A stretch of 63,762 nt of DNA, filler included, from Coriobacteriales bacterium (GTDB lineage Bacteria > Actinomycetota > Coriobacteriia > Coriobacteriales > UBA8131), in NCBI GenBank assembly GCA_031263105.1. It is 6 parts of 6 records of this genome, joined end to end, with 100 filler letters (N's around TTAATTAATTAA, not from the genome) between each part and the next. Parts side by side here need not be neighbours in the genome. Positions count along the whole stretch, not along the records: positions 1 to 19,586 come from JAISGJ010000047.1; 5 more parts are not named here. The stretch is one strand, 5' to 3'. The number at the start of each line of letters is the position of its first letter. The first letter of the stretch is position 1. Below are positions 1 to 18,000 of this stretch, one piece after another. A program made the position numbers.

Positions 1-3000
1 TTCGTCGCGACGAGTGGTGATTTACAAGGGTACGGTGAGCGGCTATACTGGAAAAGGTTTTTGTTCGAAAAATGTCAATTCAATGGTATGATATGCCTTT
101 GAGGTGGTATCATAAGGCCTTGGTGTGCGTGGAAGGTATGCGTGGACTGGGGCAGTAGCAGGGGGTACCGAGTGGGTTCATCTAACGATATAACGCCGCG
201 GCAGGATGACGCGCCACAGTCAGCGGACGTCGGTCGCCGCCCCTCTGGGTCCCCCGGGCAGAAGCCGACATCCGCACACCCCTCTTCCCAGATAACAACC
301 CGTGCCCGCCATGCCGCGAGCACCAGCGAGCCCCAACACGGCCGTCCTCGCGCCCGCCGCGCCAAGGCAGGCGCAGCCGGCACCGCTGCCAACAACGACT
401 CCCGCACCGGCAGCGGCGCAGGCACCAAGCCCACGTCCGCGCCGGCCTCCCTCCGCGCGGCCTTTACCCGCATGTCTCCGCGCACGCGAATCGTTGCCGC
501 TGCGCTCTCCCTCGTCCTGGTCGCCGCCGTGTCCACTGCCGCCATCGCAACGGCCCTCTCCACGCGGGACAGCCTGGCCGCGACCGGCCCCCTGACCGCC
601 GTCACGGTTTTTGCCCCTGGGGAGGAGATCGGCACGTCCGGCGACGAGGCCTCCGACCCCGCCGCCGTCGGCTCCGATCCCGCCACCGACCCCGCCCTCG
701 CCGACCCGGCCGACCCGGCCGCAACCGACCCCGCCGCCGACCCGGCCGCAACAGACCCCGACACCCCCGCCGACCCGGCCGACCCCGACCCCGCCGCCGA
801 CGACCCCGACGCCCGCGACCCCGATGCCCCCGTTCTCGACCTTGCGGACAGCGGATCGCAGGCAGCGGGCACGGACGTCCCCGAGCAGCTCGAGGACCAG
901 CTCAATGCGCTGGTCGAGGAGAAGCGTGAGGAGAAGGTCAAGACCCAGACGGAGTATGGCGACATCGAGAGCATGCTCGCCTACGTCACCGAGAACGGCA
1001 CGCAGGAGGAGATCGACCGCTACACGAACCTCCTGAACGAGTACGCGCAGAAGCTCACGAAGCTCGACGAGGACATCGAGCTGTACACGCAGTAGAGTAT
1101 CCGGCTCCGAGGCCGGCCCTGTCGGCTTCGGAGCATTCTCAACGGCCCCTGCTTCAGGGGGCCGATAGCAGGACCCGGCTCCGGTACCAGGGGGCCGGCC
1201 GCACGACCCGGCTCCGGTACAAAGGGGCCGGCCGCACCACCCGGCTTCCCGGAGTCGGCCTCGACCCCAAACGGGGTCGGTGCCACCGCTTCGCCGGTAG
1301 CAACACCGCCCGGCACGTCGGCCCATGCCGACGCAAACCCTGGACCCGCCAACGCCAACCGGTAGGGGAGAGGGGGCCGGGGCCGGTGGAGCCCCCGGAA
1401 GTCGGCAACAGTGCCCAGCAGCGCCGGGATACCACCCTTCCCCCCCGGCAGTGTTGGGGTGTTACCCAGCAGCGCCGGGATTGCTCCTTTCTCCTTGGCC
1501 TGCTGGGCGGCGCCACCCAGCAGTGCCATCCATCCTCGTCACTGCTGGGGGAGCGCCACCCCTCCCGGTCTTGCTGGGGGCCGCTGTTGCCGCCCCCAGC
1601 GAGCCACCCCCTCCCAGCTCCGTCGGGAGCCGCTCCGGCGACTCCCGGCGGGGCCCCCCCGCGTTACCGCACCACCCCGCACCACCCCGCACCACCCGCA
1701 CCACCCGGCCCGCCCCAGCGGGCGGCCCGGCCACCGCATCGTCCGCATCACCCGGCCCCGGCCGGTAGCACTGCCCGGCGGCCCCTGGGGCCCGCAGAGG
1801 AAAAGGAGTGTCCCGTGTTACTCAAATCAAGGAGCGTCCTCGTAATCATCGCCCTCGCGCTGGTGGCTGCCATCGCGGGGACCGTCATCGTCCTCAACAC
1901 GGGCAAGACGGCCACCACCTTCCCGGAGGACGGCTACGTCTTTGCCGAGCCCCAGGAGGGCGAGGAGGGCGGCTACACGTCGCCGCAGATCCGCTTCAAG
2001 GCGGGCAGCGCCTACGAGAACAACTTTGAGCAGGACCTCGTCTTCACGGGTGAGGAGGGCCAGAAAGAGGCCCTTGCGGACTACGGCTTCGTCCATTACA
2101 CGAGCGGCGCGATCTCCACGCTGAAGCCCGGCGTCGTCATGAGCCTCTCCAACCTCGACAACGAGGGCTTCACGGGCTACTCGGTCACCCCCGCCAACGT
2201 CATCGAGAAGGCGGGCAACGGCTACGCGATCAGCCACTTCGACAGCAGCATCCCCTTCGAGTCCCTCGTCGTGAAGCTCAACGAGGGCCAGTACCTCTTC
2301 GCGGGCGCCAGCCTCGAGGTCAACCAGGGCGAGTCCGAGACGCCGGTGCCCAACGGCTTCGTCGAGGTCAACTACATCGACAACGGCGTCATCGAGATCG
2401 TCTCCGACGAGCAGACCATCCTCACGGTCGCCAACGACACGAGGCTCACGATCAACGACGACATCGTGGTGGACCTGAGCAAGCGGGAGATAGAATCGGG
2501 CGAGACGGGCCTGGGGCTCTCCCAGATCGTCGTGGACGGGACGGACAACATCGAGGTCACCGAGGTCGCTGCCAACGAGGTCACGGGCGTCAAGCTCCCC
2601 ACCTTCACGGTGATCGACGGCACGGACGGCTCGGCAGGCTCGGCGGGCACCTCCGGCACCTCGGGCACGGGCGGCGCGGACGGCGCCGAGGGCAGCTCCG
2701 GCGGCGGCGGCACGGCGGGCAGCGCCGGCCAGGCCGGCCAGGTGGGCGCGCCCGGCGCGGACGGCATCTACGGCGTCGACGGCGCCTCGGGTGCGGACGG
2801 CGCGGGCGGCACGGGCTACGAGGACCCTGACGACCCCGGCACGGGCGACGACCCGGGCGACACGCCCACCCCCGTCAAGCCGAACATCCCCAACTACGAG
2901 CTGCCGGTGTTCACGCTGGCCAGCTGGGACGTGACGGCCATCACGGCGCGCGGCAGCATCGCGCTCGACGACCAGGGCAAGGTCCAGCTCGACGGCGACC

Positions 3001-15000: not shown

Positions 15001-18000
15001 AGCACCGCCGCGTGACGCGGCCCTCGACCCCAACGCACCGTCCTCACAGGTGCGCGAGTACCTTGCATCCAGCACCAGCAGGATACAGGTGCAGATATCG
15101 TCGTTCGCCGAGGGCCTGCAGGTGATCCGCGACGTCTCCATCGTGCGCGTGCGCGGCAGGGAGTCGCGCCTGCTCATCATGGAGGACTACATGCCCATCA
15201 TCGGCGAGATCGACGGGGCCATCGACGTCATAGGCAAGGACTTCTACCAGACCTTCGAGCCCATCCAGGGCTTCTTCTGCCACGAGCACAACGTCTTCTT
15301 CCTCCTGCTGCGCGAGCAGCAGATACGCGGCGACGGCAAGCTCCTCATCTCCCGCGACCCCGACGTAGCCGCCGCCGACATCGAAACCGTAGCCGCCTTG
15401 GAGCGTGACTAGATGCCTGCGGCTGCAAACTACCGTCGCGCACTGCGTGCGCTCTCTATGCAGTCGGGCGCTGCCGCGCCCGACAGGCACTCACTGTCTG
15501 CCGCGCCCGACAGGCACTCACTGTCATTCCGAGCGGAGGGGCGAAGCCCCGCAGCCGAGGAATCTTCGACCGCGCCAGCGGTCGACCGTGGCCGAAAGGC
15601 GCTTCTGCCTGCGATCGGCTGCCCCGCAGCCGAGGATTCCTCGGCTGCGGGGCTTCGCCCCGGAGCCTGTCCTGAGCGCAGCCGAAGGACTCGGAATGAC
15701 AGGAATGACAGAAAGGAAGAGCTGCCACAAGCAGCCGAGCAGGCGGACAGATAGACGAACAGACAGACTGCGTTTCAGGAAGAAGGAACGATATGGCTCC
15801 CCTTGACAACCTGGCATCCAGCAAGGTGCCCGACCATCGATTCAAAGAACTCGCCCAACGCATCGCGGGACTCCGCGACGCCTGTGGCTACTCCCTCGAG
15901 GAATTCGCCGACAAGCTGGGCGTGAGCCGCGAGGCCTATCGCGCCTATGAGGAAACGGGGTTCGACGTCCCGGCAAGCCTGCTCATGCATATTGCCCACG
16001 TCTGCAACGTAGACATGGCCGTCCTTCTCACCGGCGGTTCCACCCATTTGGACACCTATCAGGTCGTGCGTGCAGGCAAGGGGCAGGTCGTCGACCGCTT
16101 CCCGGGCTATCACTTCCAGGACCTCGCCTACGCCTATACCGGCAAGGTCATGCAGCCGCTCCTCGTCACGCTGGATCCCGGCGACGAGGCCGCAGGACTC
16201 GTTGCCCACGCAGGCCAGGAGTTCAACTACGTGACGCAGGGCACGGTGATCCTCGTGTTCGCCGACCGCGAGATCGAGCTGAATGTGGGCGACAGCGTCT
16301 ACTTCAACCCCCAGATCCCGCATGGCCAGCGCTGCGGTTCGGATGGGCCGGCGGTATTCGTGACCATGATCACAGAATGACCCCCACCACGGCACAGTCC
16401 CGGCACAGCCCCGCCGACCCTCTGCAAAGGAAGTAGCATGAACCATATTCTCAAACAGTATTGCCCTCGCATCGACTTCACGTCCTATGAGGACTTCTTC
16501 GAGAACTTCAGGATAGACGTGCCCGCAGACTTCAACTTCGCCTATGACGTCGTCGACGAGTGGGCGCGCGTCGAGCCGGACAAGAGGGCGCTCGTCTGGT
16601 GCGACGACGCGGACGACGAGCGCATCCTCACATTCACCGACGTCTCGCGGCTTTCTGACCGGCTCGCCAACGCACTGTGGGACATCGGCCTTCGCAAGGG
16701 CGACATCGTCATGGTCGCCCTGCGTCAACGCTGGGAATACTGGGTCACAGCGACGGCGCTCTGCAAGCTAGGGGCGATCGTTATCCCTGCGACGACCCAG
16801 CTCACACAAAAAGACATCGTCTACCGCCTCAACGCCTCCGGCGCCAAAGCCGTCATCGCCCTGGACGACGAGTACGTGCGTGCACAGATGGAGCTCGCCC
16901 TCCCCTCCTGCCCCGAGATCGAGTGGCGGATACTCGTGAACGGAACGCCCGCCGAGGGGGCTGCCGCTGCTGGGGCGCCCGCCGTCGAAGGCTCTGGGGA
17001 GAACATCGGGGGAGACGCCGCCGGAACGTCCGCCGGGGGAAGCGCCCGCCCAGAAACCGACGGCTGGCTCTCCTTCGAGCGGATGCTCGCGGGTGCCTCC
17101 GAGGACTGGACCCGTCCCACGGGCGAGGCGGCAACGCGCAACGACGACATCATGCTCATCTACTTCACTTCCGGCACCACGGGGCCGGCCAAGATGTGCG
17201 AGCACAACTTCGTGCATCCTCTCGGGCACATCATCACCGCAAAGTACTGGCAGCAGGTTCAGGAGAACAGGCTGCATTGCAGCGTGAGCGACAGCGGCTG
17301 GGCGAAGTTCGGCTGGGGCAAGATATACGGCCAGTGGATCGCAGGGGCGACGGTCTTCGCCTATGACGCAATCCGCTTCAACCCGCTTGAGCTGCTCAGG
17401 CGCATCGAACGCTACCAGGTGTGCACCTTCTGCGTGCCGCCGACGATGTACCGCTTCATGCTGCAGGAGGATCTCTCCTCCATCGACCTGAGCAGCGTCG
17501 AGAACTACACGACCGCCGGCGAGCCGCTCAATGCCGACGTCACCAAACGCTGGTACGAGACGACCGGCAAGATGATACGGGAGGGCTTCGGGCAGTCGGA
17601 GGGGCCGGTGCTTCTCGCCACCTTCCCCTGGGTCGAGCCGCGCCCCGGCTCCATGGGCAGGCCCTCGCCCCTGCTCAACATCCAGCTGCTCGATGCCGAG
17701 GGCGCACCCGTCGCGGACGGCGACGAGGGGAGCATCTGCGTCACCCGCCTCAAGGAGGCCTACCCGCCAGGGCTCTTCGTCGGCTACTACCGCAACCCCG
17801 AAGCCACCGAGACGGCCGTCGGCGGCACCCACTACGACCTGCACGACGTCGCCTGGCGCGACCCCGACGGCTACTACACCTTCGTGGGGCGCAACGACGA
17901 CGTCATCAAGTGCTCCGGGTATCGCATCGGACCCTTCGAGGTGGAGAGCGCGCTCGTCGCCCATCCCGCCGTCCTCGAATGCGCCGTCACCGCCGCCCCC

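What a model noticed while it worked through the whole genome (the two positions that open the first line are those of the whole stretch)
1815..15412. Second, a-less F-type rotary ATPase cassette with giant surface proteins
Besides its normal F1Fo operon (C38), the genome carries an 8-gene cassette: two N-terminally anchored extracellular proteins (2250 and 597 aa, collagen-like Gly runs, FN3-like domains), a c-subunit-like protein with no membrane carboxylate, a fused b-delta-like stalk protein, and short alpha-, gamma-, beta- and epsilon-like subunits; there is no a subunit. I read it as an ATP-hydrolysing rotary motor whose c-ring cannot carry ions and that does mechanical work on the two co-conserved surface proteins (surface-protein movement, adhesion or gliding), a non-mycoplasma counterpart of the 'F1-like X0' ATPases. 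New would be a whole, widely spread class of F-type motor in Clostridia, Bacilli, Erys [...]
Evidence so far: Gene order g01587-g01594 (tables; call 16). With a relative of the gamma-like protein as bait 69 loci were fetched from GTDB species genomes; blastp of six-frame ORFs finds all six ATPase-type genes in the same order in 54 of the 69 loci (the others are cut by contig ends); of 45 loci with at least 5.2 kb upstream of the gamma-like gene, 35 have blastp-detectable relatives of both large proteins in the same places and 9 more have the 597-aa relative preceded by an unrelated-looking ORF of 1764-1854 aa. c-like: 24 of 24 aligned members keep the GRNPET loop but have no D/E in helix 2. 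g01590 model pLDDT 89.5: TM + 77-residue helix + globular domain whose best PDB matches are ATP-synthase delta [...]
(Added by a program. Inside this text positions count along the whole contig: they may not be those of the stretch shown here. "Call 12" and the like, gene names such as g00115 and contig names such as C1 are that model's own, and its searches are not shown. The text may have been shortened before it was handed on; [...] marks where a part breaks off. The agent that wrote the report below was given it as the finding of a first reader that could run no searches.)

Follow-up and report, generated by a model that had tools for sequence, protein, structure and literature searches.

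The report
ATP motor tied to surface giants
A gut bacterium carries, beside its normal ATP synthase, a second ATP-synthase-like motor that cannot carry ions and is always encoded with several huge membrane-anchored surface proteins, so it probably uses ATP to do mechanical work at the cell surface.

Summary
The eight genes are real and sit at the stated coordinates. Two N-anchored Gly-repeat proteins are followed by c-like, fused b-delta, alpha-, gamma-, beta- and epsilon-like genes. Catalytic motifs are kept. The c-like protein has no membrane carboxylate in 68 of 68 members. The genome's only a subunit lies in the canonical operon on another contig.

In 70 of 73 related loci the cluster continues with X1 (4-5 TM), X2 (anchored beta-domain protein) and, in 61 of 65, a third giant (B3, about 3500-3750 aa, anchored at both ends). 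In this genome these three genes lie on another contig, C3, behind the same REP-like repeats.

New findings: B1, B2, X2 and B3 share a membrane-proximal domain. The Gly-repeat lengths of B1 and B2 co-vary (r = 0.98, 40 loci, 27-208 residues), which argues for a joint collagen-like stalk. Beta-like proteins group with mycoplasma Type 3 'F1-like X0' betas (98/98), but the alpha tree is unresolved and no other subunit matches.

Best reading: an ion-blind ATP-hydrolysing F-type motor that actuates surface proteins. Function is untested. Four full-text searches found no description.

The parts
1815..8567 (+). B1: 2250-aa protein with an N-terminal TM anchor (residues 8-26), a membrane-proximal beta-rich domain, a collagen-like G-X-Y run (22 triplets, residues 269-334) and a large C-terminal region.
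   Evidence: ORF and translation. TM helix and Gly run. Weak Collagen/SclB matches. Its N-domain is homologous to that of B2 (hhalign 97.4%, E 1.6e-11). Found upstream of c in 55 of 55 loci with enough sequence.
8587..10380 (+). B2: 597-aa protein with an N-terminal TM anchor (residues 16-34), the same kind of membrane-proximal domain, a G-G-X run (24 triplets, residues 247-318) and a C-terminal FN3-like part with an acidic Pro/Ala-rich tail.
   Evidence: No Pfam family. Lies just upstream of c in 58 of 59 loci. The span of its Gly repeat tracks that of B1 (r = 0.98, 40 loci).
10455..10697 (+). c-like subunit: an 80-aa hairpin with a GxGxGxG helix 1, an invariant GRNPETK loop, helix 2 without a carboxylate (T60 at the canonical E position) and a conserved [FY]NP tail.
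   Evidence: PF00137 at 33.4 bits. Alignment with the genome's canonical c. D/E in helix 2 in 0 of 68 members, GRNPETK in 67 of 68, [FY]NP in 67 of 68.
10727..11512 (+). Fused b-delta-like peripheral-stalk protein of 261 aa: TM helix continuing into a long helix (residues 2-79), a disordered linker, a helical bundle (105-207) and a small beta domain (211-255).
   Evidence: TTG start behind a GGA-rich stretch. No Pfam or NCBIfam family. AlphaFold2 model with pLDDT 86.7. 41 of the top 42 Foldseek PDB rows are ATP synthase delta/OSCP or peripheral-stalk chains, including mycobacterial b-delta; best E 3.1e-4.
11509..12828 (+). alpha-like subunit of 439 aa, about 65-80 residues shorter at the C-terminus than canonical alpha.
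   Evidence: PF00006 at 231 bits. Matches positions 11-432 of the 507-position alpha model NF009884 with 405 bits, against a cut-off of 554. Arg-finger motif present in 74 of 74 members. 38% identical to the canonical alpha on C38.
12831..13622 (+). gamma-like central stalk subunit of 263 aa.
   Evidence: PF00231 at 64.9 bits. TIGR01146 gives 33.9 bits against a cut-off of 194. The family is distinct: 51 cluster representatives at E<=1e-30 among 1.84 billion.
13619..14974 (+). beta-like catalytic subunit of 451 aa.
   Evidence: atpD model 449.7 bits against a cut-off of 462.85. Walker A in 75 of 77 members, catalytic GER in 77 of 77, Walker B in 77 of 77. Forms a clade of its own with support 100/100.
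14984..15412 (+). eps-like subunit of 142 aa. It has only the N-terminal beta-sandwich core (about 80 aa), without the C-terminal helical hairpin, and in this genome carries an N-terminal extension of about 30 aa.
   Evidence: No Pfam family. A profile of 16 members finds only epsilon or mitochondrial delta chains in the PDB (6 of 6 hits at E<=1, best 0.006).
15413..15800 (.). Cluster of REP-like genome-wide repeats directly after eps. This is where X1-X2-B3 follow in other genomes.
   Evidence: 510 blastn matches of this segment across the genome's contigs. A 51-nt stretch (15433-15483) is 100% identical to the sequence upstream of X1 on contig C3.

Best explanation
The cassette encodes an F-type rotary ATPase that has been taken out of ion coupling and is used as an ATP-driven mechanical actuator for a set of membrane-anchored surface proteins.

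Shown by sequence and models:
- An alpha3beta3-type head with intact catalytic motifs.
- A gamma-like shaft.
- An eps-like subunit reduced to its beta-sandwich.
- A single b-delta fusion as stator stalk.
- A very conserved c-like hairpin that keeps the ring-packing glycines and the gamma/epsilon-facing RNPET loop but has no membrane carboxylate.
- No a subunit.
- Four paralogous partners (B1, B2, X2, B3), each with an N-terminal TM helix and a related membrane-proximal beta domain, plus a polytopic membrane protein X1.
- Gly-triplet repeats in B1 and B2 whose lengths match locus by locus.

Inferred:
- The enzyme only hydrolyses ATP. It has no ion path, and I recall that epsilon's C-terminal helices are what brake hydrolysis; they are absent here.
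- The c-ring is a torque-transmitting or torque-absorbing membrane element, not an ion carrier.
- B1 and B2 assemble into one collagen-like stalk, about 19-21 nm long here and 8-60 nm across the family, using the recalled rise of about 0.29 nm per residue. The stalk carries their large distal parts outward.
- X1 with b-delta replaces subunit a as the membrane stator.
- ATP-driven movement of the rotor relative to this stator is passed to the anchored proteins. The likely purposes are adhesion or release, surface movement, or handling of bound macromolecules, as in the mycoplasma F1-like systems.
For: Gene content and coordinates.

Catalytic motifs: beta Walker A in 75 of 77, GER in 77 of 77, Walker B in 77 of 77, alpha Arg finger in 74 of 74.

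c-like subunit: D/E in helix 2 in 0 of 68. The canonical E column holds T 36, A 18, S 6, V 5, M 2, N 1. GRNPETK is present in 67 of 68. Such strong conservation argues against decay.

Subunit a: one PF00119 match in the own genome, in the canonical operon. Two of five other carrier genomes have none.

b-delta: model pLDDT 86.7, and 41 of the top 42 PDB rows are delta/OSCP or peripheral-stalk chains.

eps-like: 6 of 6 PDB profile hits are epsilon-type and cover the beta-sandwich only.

Synteny:
- c-bd-A-G-B-e in order in 64 of 80 loci.
- B2 just upstream in 58 of 59.
- B1 upstream in 55 of 55.
- X1 and X2 after eps in 70 of 73.
- A giant ORF after them in 61 of 65.
Genes often overlap by a few bases. 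X1 and X2 are fused in a Lachnospiraceae subgroup.

Shared N-domain by hhalign: B1 vs B2 97.4% (E 1.6e-11); X2 vs B3 88%; B1 vs B3 82%; X2 vs B2 79.5%.

Gly-repeat spans of B1 and B2: Pearson r = 0.98 over 40 loci, r = 0.985 over the 29 loci where both have a repeat. Examples are 204 vs 208, 117 vs 120 and 27 vs 30 residues. Both are absent in 8 loci.

Precedents read in papers:
- The Type 3 F1-like X0 ATPase is needed for the MIB-MIP surface system (PMC12994834: abstract, section 2.1, passages).
- The Type 2 ATPase and three large surface proteins form the M. mobile gliding machinery, for which a 'rotation model' has been proposed (PMC8406192: passages).

The beta-like clade is sister to Type 3 betas with support 98/98.
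Against: There is no experiment and no expression data.

No contact between any ATPase subunit and any surface protein has been shown. The link rests on conserved gene neighbourhood alone.

X1 has no invariant residue and no detectable likeness to subunit a, so its stator role is a guess.

In this genome X1-X2-B3 are not next to eps. They lie on another contig. If that separation is real, the eight genes may work without them, or the system may be breaking up here.

The system is rare (1 of 400 genomes and 3 of 24), so it is an accessory trait.

The sister grouping with Type 3 joins two long branches, was flagged as possible long-branch attraction, and is not reproduced by the alpha tree.

Gly-length co-variation is counted over related genomes that are not independent. 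Equal length could also mean two separate spacers tuned to the same distance.
Confidence: 0.5

Rival explanations
1. The ATPase is an assembly, export or insertion machine for the giant proteins, not a motor that works on them afterwards. It would energise the unfolding, threading or membrane insertion of the 600-3750-aa substrates, as the F1-related ATPase FliI does with FliJ and FliH at type III export gates. The c-like ring and X1 would form the membrane platform.
For: I recall that FliI, FliJ and FliH are relatives of F1 alpha/beta, gamma and b/delta. FliI/SctN models do hit the alpha- and beta-like proteins, though far below cut-off (for example 225 bits against 619). The partners are very large, lack classical cleavable signal peptides and have N-terminal signal-anchors. 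B3 must have both ends inserted in the membrane. Synteny is as strong as for the best explanation.
Against: The head is of the hetero-hexameric alpha/beta kind with a gamma shaft filling its centre, and it keeps a peripheral stalk and a c-ring. That is the build of a torque machine, not a homo-hexameric unfoldase. The c loop that meets gamma/eps is invariant. No export-gate components were seen in the cluster (Pfam scans).
Confidence: 0.12
2. The complex does not rotate fully. The carboxylate-less c-ring is a static membrane anchor, and ATP binding and hydrolysis in the head act as a switch. Limited conformational strokes or nucleotide-dependent clamping would regulate the attached surface proteins.
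For: Without an a subunit and an ion path there is no known element against which the ring must turn. For M. mobile a non-rotary 'contraction model' stands beside the rotation model (PMC8406192, passage).
Against: All parts needed for rotation are retained and conserved: the gamma coiled coil, the eps beta-sandwich, the c loop and a stator stalk bridging membrane and head. A mere anchor would not need a peripheral stalk as well as a ring.
Confidence: 0.15
3. It is still an ion-translocating ATPase or synthase. It would use a non-canonical ion site in the c-like ring together with X1, or the a subunit borrowed from the canonical operon. The big proteins would be unrelated neighbours or accessory regulators.
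For: Automatic annotation calls members 'F0F1 ATP synthase subunit gamma'. The beta-like score is only 13 bits under the atpD cut-off. X1 is a polytopic membrane protein encoded right after eps.
Against: No D/E anywhere in c helix 2 in 68 of 68 members, and the residue at the canonical position is not conserved (T/A/S/V/M/N). X1 has no invariant residue and no conserved Arg, and its hhalign probability against the genome's a subunit is 0.2%. Two of five carrier genomes have no a subunit at all. The linkage to the anchored proteins is near-universal.
Confidence: 0.06

Closest known systems
Mycoplasma 'F1-like X0' ATPases: Type 3 (MSC_0618/0619 family, works with the MIB-MIP antibody-cleaving surface system) and Type 2 (M. 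mobile gliding motor)
   Same: - An extra alpha/beta/gamma/epsilon-like set beside the genuine F1Fo operon.
- No a subunit and no ion-carrying c.
- Encoded with, or working with, large membrane-anchored surface proteins (PMC3369863 abstract and passages; PMC12994834 abstract, section 2.1, passages; PMC8406192 passages).
- In my beta tree the cassette clade is sister to 8 Type 3 betas with support 98/98.
   Different: - Type 3 clusters have the order 12-TM protein, small cytoplasmic protein, gamma, epsilon, 700-aa membrane protein, alpha, beta. They have no c-like and no b-delta-like gene.
- Cassette HMMs for c, b-delta, gamma, eps, X1, X2 and B1-B3 find nothing in four fetched Type 3 regions at E<=10.
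- Scores against the Type 3 and Type 2 NCBIfam models are far under their cut-offs (383 vs 570, 288 vs 520, 382 vs 850, 376 vs 600).
- The alpha tree does not resolve the relation.
- Here alpha is cut short at the C-terminus and keeps N-terminal residues. The Type 3 alpha is reported to lack the N-terminal helix (PMC12994834, section 2.1).
- The hosts are walled Bacillota and Actinomycetota, not mycoplasmas.
Canonical bacterial F1Fo ATP synthase (atpBEFHAGDC)
   Same: The gene order c, b/delta, alpha, gamma, beta, epsilon is that of the canonical operon minus a. The subunits are recognisably homologous. A fused b-delta also exists in mycobacterial ATP synthase, whose structures appear among the matches.
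   Different: There is no a subunit and no c carboxylate. There is a single stalk protein instead of b2 plus delta. Alpha lacks about 65-80 C-terminal residues and eps lacks its helical hairpin. All equivalog scores are under their cut-offs. Five extra membrane-anchored partners are encoded in the same cluster.
V-ATPase accessory subunits inside the c-ring (ATP6AP1/Ac45, ATP6AP2/PRR, yeast Voa1)
   Same: These are single-pass membrane proteins, one with a large domain on the far side of the membrane. Their TM helices sit inside a rotary ATPase's c-ring (passage read in bioRxiv 10.64898/2026.07.01.735876, citing Abbas 2020 and others). They set a precedent for how the N-terminal helices of B1, B2, X2 and B3 could be joined to the ring.
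   Different: No homology was tested or claimed. Those V-ATPases still pump protons. Placing the cassette's helices in or on the ring is pure inference.
Bacterial collagen-like surface proteins (Scl1/Scl2-type)
   Same: Uninterrupted Gly-X-Y runs rich in charged or small residues in B1. There is a partial match to the SclB model (29.7 bits) and to Pfam Collagen, which is above cut-off in the relative L029 (28.3 vs 27.2).
   Different: Anchoring is by an N-terminal TM helix, and no LPXTG motif is present. The partner chain B2 has G-G-X repeats. The two chains' repeat lengths co-vary, which suggests a hetero-oligomeric stalk. The proteins are encoded inside an ATPase operon.

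Membership tests
Canonical F1Fo ATP synthase | alpha3beta3 catalytic head with P-loop, catalytic Glu and Arg finger | tested here: met
   PF00006 at 231 and 218 bits. Motifs: Walker A 75 of 77, GER 77 of 77, Walker B 77 of 77, Arg finger 74 of 74.
Canonical F1Fo ATP synthase | c subunit with a membrane-buried Asp/Glu in helix 2 | tested here: not met
   The canonical E aligns to T60. 0 of 68 members have D/E in helix 2.
Canonical F1Fo ATP synthase | subunit a (PF00119) encoded with the operon | tested here: not met
   The genome's only PF00119 match is at C38:779-1444, in the other operon. There is no room for one between cassette genes. X1 versus subunit a gives hhalign probability 0.2%.
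Canonical F1Fo ATP synthase | scores above NCBIfam equivalog cut-offs for atpA, atpD, atpG and atpE(c) | tested here: not met
   Scores against cut-offs: 356.6 vs 484 (atpA), 449.7 vs 462.85 (atpD), 33.9 vs 194 (gamma), 30.7 vs 43.95 (c).
Canonical F1Fo ATP synthase | peripheral stalk made of b and delta | tested here: met
   Present as one fused protein. Model pLDDT 86.7, and 41 of the top 42 Foldseek rows are delta/OSCP or peripheral-stalk chains. E-values are modest (best 3.1e-4).
Mycoplasma F1-like X0, Type 3 (MSC_0618/0619) | alpha/beta paralogues that score above the family's NCBIfam cut-offs | tested here: not met
   383.4 vs 570 (beta) and 288.1 vs 520 (alpha).
Mycoplasma F1-like X0, Type 3 (MSC_0618/0619) | seven-gene cluster: 12-TM protein, small cytoplasmic protein, gamma, epsilon, large membrane protein, alpha, beta | tested here: not met
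   Three of the four fetched Type 3 regions (L146-L148) show that order. Only alpha and beta hit cassette HMMs in all four. The cassette's order and membrane parts are different.
Mycoplasma F1-like X0, Type 3 (MSC_0618/0619) | common descent of the catalytic subunits apart from canonical F1 | tested here: inconclusive
   The beta tree gives cassette + Type 3 support of 85 (LG+G4, 63 rows, with a long-branch warning) and 98/98 (LG+C20+F+G4 PMSF, 35 rows). The alpha tree is unresolved (support 0). AU tests did not finish.
Mycoplasma F1-like X0, Type 3 (MSC_0618/0619) | co-occurrence with MIB-MIP genes | not tested
   No MIB or MIP search was run. Pfam scans of the cassette's partners showed only Collagen, fn3 and GLUG matches.
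Mycoplasma Type 2 / M. mobile gliding ATPase (MMOB1660/1670) | scores above the glide_MMOB1660 and glide_MMOB1670 cut-offs | tested here: not met
   376 vs 600 and 381.8 vs 850. The PDB G1-ATPase alpha 9io5_D scores 266 bits, within the range of canonical alphas (243-305 bits).
N-ATPase (alternate F1F0) | alt_F1F0 alpha/beta models, its own a subunit and an ion-binding c | tested here: not met
   333.5 vs 750.5 and 410.4 vs 752. There is no a subunit and no c carboxylate.
Bacterial collagen-like proteins | uninterrupted Gly-X-Y repeats | tested here: met
   22 triplets in B1 and 24 G-G-X triplets in B2. Pfam Collagen scores 16.9 in the window (under 27.2) and 28.3 in L029 B1 (over it).
Bacterial collagen-like proteins | trimeric triple helix | not testable with these tools
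   This is inferred only from matched repeat lengths.

The most novel reading that the evidence does not exclude
The motor may be a true transmembrane rotary drive with an external shaft.

The N-terminal helices of B1 and B2 would be held in or on the ion-blind c-ring, as Ac45, PRR and Voa1 helices are held inside V-ATPase c-rings. ATP-driven rotation of gamma-eps-c would then spin their joint collagen-like triple helix. That helix would be a length-matched driveshaft of about 8-60 nm reaching through the cell wall.

b-delta, X1, X2 and the doubly anchored 3500-3750-aa B3 would form the stator or a belt against which the shaft works. The result would be rotation or winding of giant proteins on the surface of walled gut bacteria.

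This would be a third kind of bacterial surface rotary machine, powered by ATP rather than ion flow. It could also be the ancestral form of the mycoplasma F1-like X0 systems.
Probability: 0.12. Interest if true: 0.95.

Novelty: new variant of a known kind. Interest (0 to 1): 0.8.

Why it matters
Rotary F-type ATPases are textbook ion-coupled machines. [quoted passage not shown]

This cassette shows a related solution in walled Bacillota and Actinomycetota. Going by the record titles of the fetched loci, most of these genomes come from gut or faecal samples. It keeps far more of the original machine (c-ring, b-delta stalk, canonical gene order), so the steps from ATP synthase to mechanical actuator can be read directly.

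It raises concrete, testable questions:
- What does a c-ring do when it cannot bind ions and has no a subunit?
- How is torque passed across a membrane to proteins outside?

The matched Gly-repeat lengths give a ready structural hypothesis. Cultured carriers exist: record titles name Bifidobacterium colobi LC6, Clostridium sp. AM30-24 and Lachnospiraceae bacterium MD1. That makes genetics, ATPase assays and cryo-EM or cryo-ET feasible.

If the beta-tree sister relation to Type 3 holds, it would also point to the origin of the mycoplasma immune-evasion and gliding motors.

Tried and rejected
- Complex prediction of b-delta (residues 1-100) with X1 gave 'no answer' (score 0.04). It is no evidence either way.
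- I tested whether lineages without Gly repeats are wall-less. This is rejected: 5 of 5 such genomes have five PBP transpeptidase matches each.
- Expression: no RNA holder is listed for the stretch.
- Contig junction after eps: Logan contigs of two termite-gut runs are short. No listed piece bridges 15208-16556. Depths are similar on both sides (22-28 vs 26-36). The question stays unresolved.
- Pairwise BLASTP of B1 against B2 shows nothing (best E 4.2). Only the profile comparison shows the shared domain.
- X2 fold: model pLDDT 85.1, but no Foldseek match at E<=0.001 and a best VIA Z of 5.2, which is within noise.
- X1 has no Pfam family at E<=0.01, no invariant residue and no likeness to subunit a.
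- The Atlas look-up of B2 gave only leads under 0.9.
- The word-indexed search with b-delta found only 8 relatives, because the protein diverges fast. HMMs built from the loci found it in 74 loci.
- Promoter and terminator scans around both ends of the cassette found nothing above chance.
- AU tests of alternative beta topologies and the careful alpha tree did not finish in time.
- Literature: four full-text searches returned no paper describing this cassette. The two mycoplasma papers hold no mention of non-mollicute relatives in the passages searched. Papers outside the held library and all supplements were not seen.

Full report
WHAT IS IN THE WINDOW

The window is a chain of contigs separated by runs of N. 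Positions 1-19586 are one whole contig of the genome, C163. On its + strand lie eight close-packed ORFs:
- B1, 1815-8567, 2250 aa
- B2, 8587-10380, 597 aa
- c-like, 10455-10697, 80 aa
- b-delta, 10727-11512, 261 aa, TTG start
- alpha-like, 11509-12828, 439 aa
- gamma-like, 12831-13622, 263 aa
- beta-like, 13619-14974, 451 aa
- eps-like, 14984-15412, 142 aa

Pfam recognises c, alpha, gamma and beta. It finds nothing for B2, b-delta or eps. Every NCBIfam equivalog score is under its cut-off. Beta-like comes closest (449.7 vs 462.85 for atpD), and alpha-like scores 405 vs 554. The models for the mycoplasma Type 3, Type 2 (gliding) and N-ATPase families are missed by wide margins.

The genome also holds a complete canonical operon (a, c with its Glu, b, delta, alpha, gamma, beta, epsilon) on contig C38, and that operon contains the genome's only PF00119 match. 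The canonical alpha and beta are 38% and 41% identical to the cassette's.

DOES THE CONTIG BELONG TO THIS GENOME?

GC content is 65.1% for C163, 65.7% for C38 and 64.5% for the whole genome. The 388 bases after eps (15413-15800) belong to a REP-like repeat family with 510 blastn matches spread over many contigs of the bin. That ties C163 to this genome better than a marker gene would. Three of 24 other genomes of the same family carry a gamma-like match, and none of 16 genomes from other families of the order do.

THE MOTOR PARTS

Catalytic head. Across the fetched relatives, beta keeps Walker A (75 of 77), the catalytic GER (77 of 77) and Walker B (77 of 77). Alpha keeps the Arg-finger motif (74 of 74). 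Alpha matches positions 11-432 of a 507-position model, so it lacks about 65-80 C-terminal residues. Lengths of 438-450 aa are typical of the family.

eps-like. The conserved core is about 80 residues. A profile of 16 members finds only epsilon or mitochondrial delta chains in the PDB (6 of 6 hits at E<=1, best 0.006). The match covers the beta-sandwich only, and there is no C-terminal helical hairpin.

b-delta. A 20-row alignment gave a model with pLDDT 86.7. It shows a TM helix running into a long helix (residues 2-79), a disordered linker, a helical bundle and a small beta domain. Of the top 42 Foldseek rows, 41 are ATP synthase delta/OSCP or peripheral-stalk chains, including the fused b-delta of mycobacteria. 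E-values are modest (best 3.1e-4).

c-like. The sequence is very conserved across phyla. GRNPETK is present in 67 of 68 members, the helix-1 glycine motif is kept, and a [FY]NP tail is present in 67 of 68. No member has D/E in helix 2. The column of the canonical Glu holds T 36, A 18, S 6, V 5, M 2 and N 1. A protein under such constraint is not a decaying relic, yet it cannot bind ions in the canonical way.

Subunit a. No a subunit fits between the cassette genes. Of five other carrier genomes searched, two small ones (1.0 and 1.3 Mb) have no PF00119 match at all. Their completeness is not known.

THE CLUSTER IS LARGER THAN EIGHT GENES

Of these, 209 encoded a relative, and the best 80 loci were fetched. 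HMMs built from those loci gave these counts:
- c-bd-A-G-B-e in order: 64 of 80 loci. Of the rest, 13 are cut by contig or locus ends. Three are permuted, and the one I inspected (L049) has a serine recombinase gene directly upstream.
- B2 just upstream of c: 58 of 59 loci with enough sequence.
- B1 upstream: 55 of 55.
- X1 and X2 after eps: 70 of 73 loci with at least 1.6 kb after eps.
- A third giant ORF (B3) starting within 4 kb after eps: 61 of 65 loci with at least 4.5 kb after eps.

X1 is a protein of about 176-212 aa with 4-5 TM helices. X2 is about 235-265 aa, with an N-terminal TM helix and an all-beta domain. In a Lachnospiraceae subgroup X1 and X2 are fused into one protein of about 405 aa.

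In the window these three genes do not follow eps. After the REP cluster come an HTH/cupin regulator and an acyl-CoA synthetase-type gene. The same genome carries X1, X2 and a 3757-aa B3 on contig C3, at 31-43% identity to kin. C3 ends 436 bases upstream of X1 inside REP repeats. One 51-nt stretch there is identical to window 15433-15483, which begins 20 nt after the eps stop. REP copies also separate X1 from X2 on C3.

Two situations are possible. C163 and C3 may be neighbours split, or mis-joined, at the repeats. Or the system may really be in two places. Public contigs of the likely source sample could not settle this.

WHAT THE PARTNERS LOOK LIKE

X1 has no Pfam family, no invariant residue and no conserved Arg. 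Its hhalign probability against the genome's a subunit is 0.2%.

The X2 model is confident (pLDDT 85.1, pTM 0.80) but has no convincing structural relative.

Profile comparisons link the N-terminal anchor plus membrane-proximal domain of all four partners:
- B1 vs B2: 97.4%, E 1.6e-11, 152 columns
- X2 vs B3: 88%
- B1 vs B3: 82%
- X2 vs B2: 79.5%

The last three values are moderate and should be treated as likely rather than certain.

B3 has a second TM helix at its very C-terminus, followed by a basic tail. This holds in the own genome and in two other complete examples (3757, 3525 and 3663 aa). A fourth example is fragmented. B3 is therefore a giant loop tied to the membrane at both ends.

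Pfam sees only fn3 and GLUG motifs in the large regions. No LPXTG motif is present in B1, B2 or the own B3.

CO-VARYING GLY REPEATS

B1 carries G-X-Y repeats that are rich in acidic residues in many relatives. Pfam Collagen is above cut-off in L029. B2 carries G-G-X repeats at the same distance from the membrane anchor.

I fetched the missing B1 N-termini for 20 more genomes and measured the repeat span in both proteins of 40 loci. The spans match: Pearson r = 0.98 over all 40 loci and 0.985 over the 29 loci where both have a repeat. The range is 27 to 208 residues. Examples are 204 vs 208, 117 vs 120, 66 vs 72 in the window, and 27 vs 30. Both proteins lack the repeat in 8 loci, and only one has it in 3.

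The genomes are related, so the p-values overstate the case. Still, the lengths differ widely between lineages and match each time.

The simplest reading is one joint stalk, probably a collagen-like hetero-oligomer. With the recalled rise of about 0.29 nm per residue it would be roughly 19-21 nm long here. An alternative is two separate spacers tuned to the same distance.

I tested whether repeat-less lineages are wall-less. They are not: 5 of 5 have PBP genes.

RELATION TO KNOWN SYSTEMS

Béven et al. [quoted passage not shown]

Berlureau et al. 2026 (PMC12994834; abstract, section 2.1 and passages read) show that Type 3 is required for the MIB-MIP surface system. They list its parts: a 12-TM protein, a 19-kDa cytoplasmic protein, gamma, epsilon, an 87-kDa membrane protein, alpha and beta.

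Toyonaga et al. 2021 (PMC8406192; passages read) link Type 2 to the M. mobile gliding machinery with three large surface proteins, and they discuss a rotation model.

I fetched 19 Type 3 beta genes and 11 canonical Bacilli beta genes and built trees:
- With LG+G4 on 63 rows, the cassette clade (100) and Type 3 (100) join with support 85. The tool gave a long-branch warning.
- With LG+C20+F+G4 (PMSF) on 35 rows, they join with 98/98, nested among canonical betas.
- The alpha tree (quick search, same model, 33 rows) leaves the three clades unresolved.
- AU tests did not finish.

In four fetched Type 3 regions only alpha and beta hit the cassette HMMs. Nothing hits for c, b-delta, gamma, eps, X1, X2 or B1-B3 at E<=10. 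The M. mobile G1-ATPase alpha in the PDB is no closer to alpha-like than canonical alphas are (266 vs 243-305 bits).

So the cassette works like, and may be distantly akin to, the mycoplasma systems, but it is not a member of either type. It keeps the canonical operon order and more of Fo.

DISTRIBUTION

Record titles of the loci name Coriobacteriales, Bifidobacterium, Eubacteriales Family XIII, Oscillospiraceae, Lachnospiraceae, Peptococcia, Bacilli, Erysipelotrichaceae and a 'Mollicutes' MAG. Two odd labels also appear (Ignavibacteriales, Thermoguttaceae), and I did not check them.

Frequency is low. One of 400 evenly drawn genomes of a carrier's phylum has it. Among 1.84 billion cluster representatives, 51 match at E<=1e-30. 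Some genomes hold two copies (for G453).

MECHANISM

Shown:
- An intact F1-type head, a shaft, a stator stalk and a conserved but ion-blind c protein.
- No a subunit.
- Near-obligate linkage to five membrane proteins, four of them paralogous anchors with huge outer parts.
- Matched stalk repeats in two of them.

Inferred:
- ATP hydrolysis turns or strains the gamma-eps-c unit against b-delta, perhaps with X1.
- That work is passed to the anchored proteins.

How it is passed is open. A precedent for single-pass helices riding inside a c-ring exists in V-ATPases (passage read in bioRxiv 10.64898/2026.07.01.735876). One complex prediction (b-delta with X1) gave no answer.

I put 0.5 on the actuator reading. 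The rivals are a non-rotating switch (0.15), an export or assembly role (0.12) and residual ion coupling (0.06).

NOVELTY

Four full-text searches found no description of this cassette. Automatic annotation names the members ordinary 'F0F1 ATP synthase subunit gamma' or 'hypothetical protein'. No NCBIfam exception model covers it. I rate it a new variant of a known kind (an F-type or F1-like ATPase put to non-bioenergetic use), with high interest.

Noticed in passing
window 15413-15800; also G000 contig C3 (L082) 12283-12588 and 13165-13600: A family of REP-like, GC-rich, partly palindromic intergenic repeats. The window segment has 510 blastn matches over many contigs of the genome. Copies sit between eps and the next gene, upstream of X1, and between X1 and X2. 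They probably cause the assembly breaks.
   Followed up: partly
L082 (G000:C3) 125-13164, minus strand: X1 (12595-13164), X2 (11439-12203) and a 3757-aa B3 (128-11398) of the same system lie on a separate 13.6-kb contig. A 51-nt stretch upstream of X1 is identical to window 15433-15483.
   Followed up: partly
L082 128-11398 (-); L149; L151: B3 has TM helices at both its N- and C-termini, and the C-terminal helix is followed by a basic tail (3757, 3525 and 3663 aa). The B3 region of a fourth genome (L150) is broken into several frames.
   Followed up: partly
L049, L051, L052: A permuted form of the cluster: b-delta, alpha, gamma, beta, eps, X1, then B1 and B2 downstream. In L049 a serine recombinase gene (7021-7620) lies directly upstream of b-delta. 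No c-like gene is seen within the locus, and no X2.
   Followed up: partly
L015 and L023; L051 and L071; L060 and L066; L064 and L074 (G453); G454 C218 and C236: Several genomes carry two copies of the cluster on different contigs.
   Followed up: no
L040 3938-6889; L045 8311-9999; L054 7762-9576: The alpha-like ORFs are much longer than the usual 440 aa (983, 562 and 604 aa). These may be insertions or fusions.
   Followed up: no
G043 (genome of L046) and G044 (genome of L048): These small genomes (1.0 and 1.3 Mb) carry the cluster but have no PF00119 (subunit a) match anywhere. The cassette may be their only F-type ATPase. Both have five PBP matches, so they are walled. L048's record title says Ignavibacteriales, which looks doubtful.
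   Followed up: partly
L145 (G508:C1:568500-579500): Around one above-cut-off Type 3 beta gene, the upstream genes differ from the usual Type 3 order. A 1486-aa ORF is present and no 12-TM protein lies within 8.7 kb.
   Followed up: no
window 19587-19686, 41334-41433, 48421-48520, 54245-54344, 60919-61018: Paired 44-base runs of N mark joins between separate contigs (C163, C165, C166, C167, C169 and others). Gene neighbourhood across them means nothing.
   Followed up: yes
window 1-1800: No Pfam family was found for any of the long ORFs upstream of B1 on either strand. In this 65-70% GC stretch they may be spurious, so the gene upstream of the cassette is unknown.
   Followed up: partly
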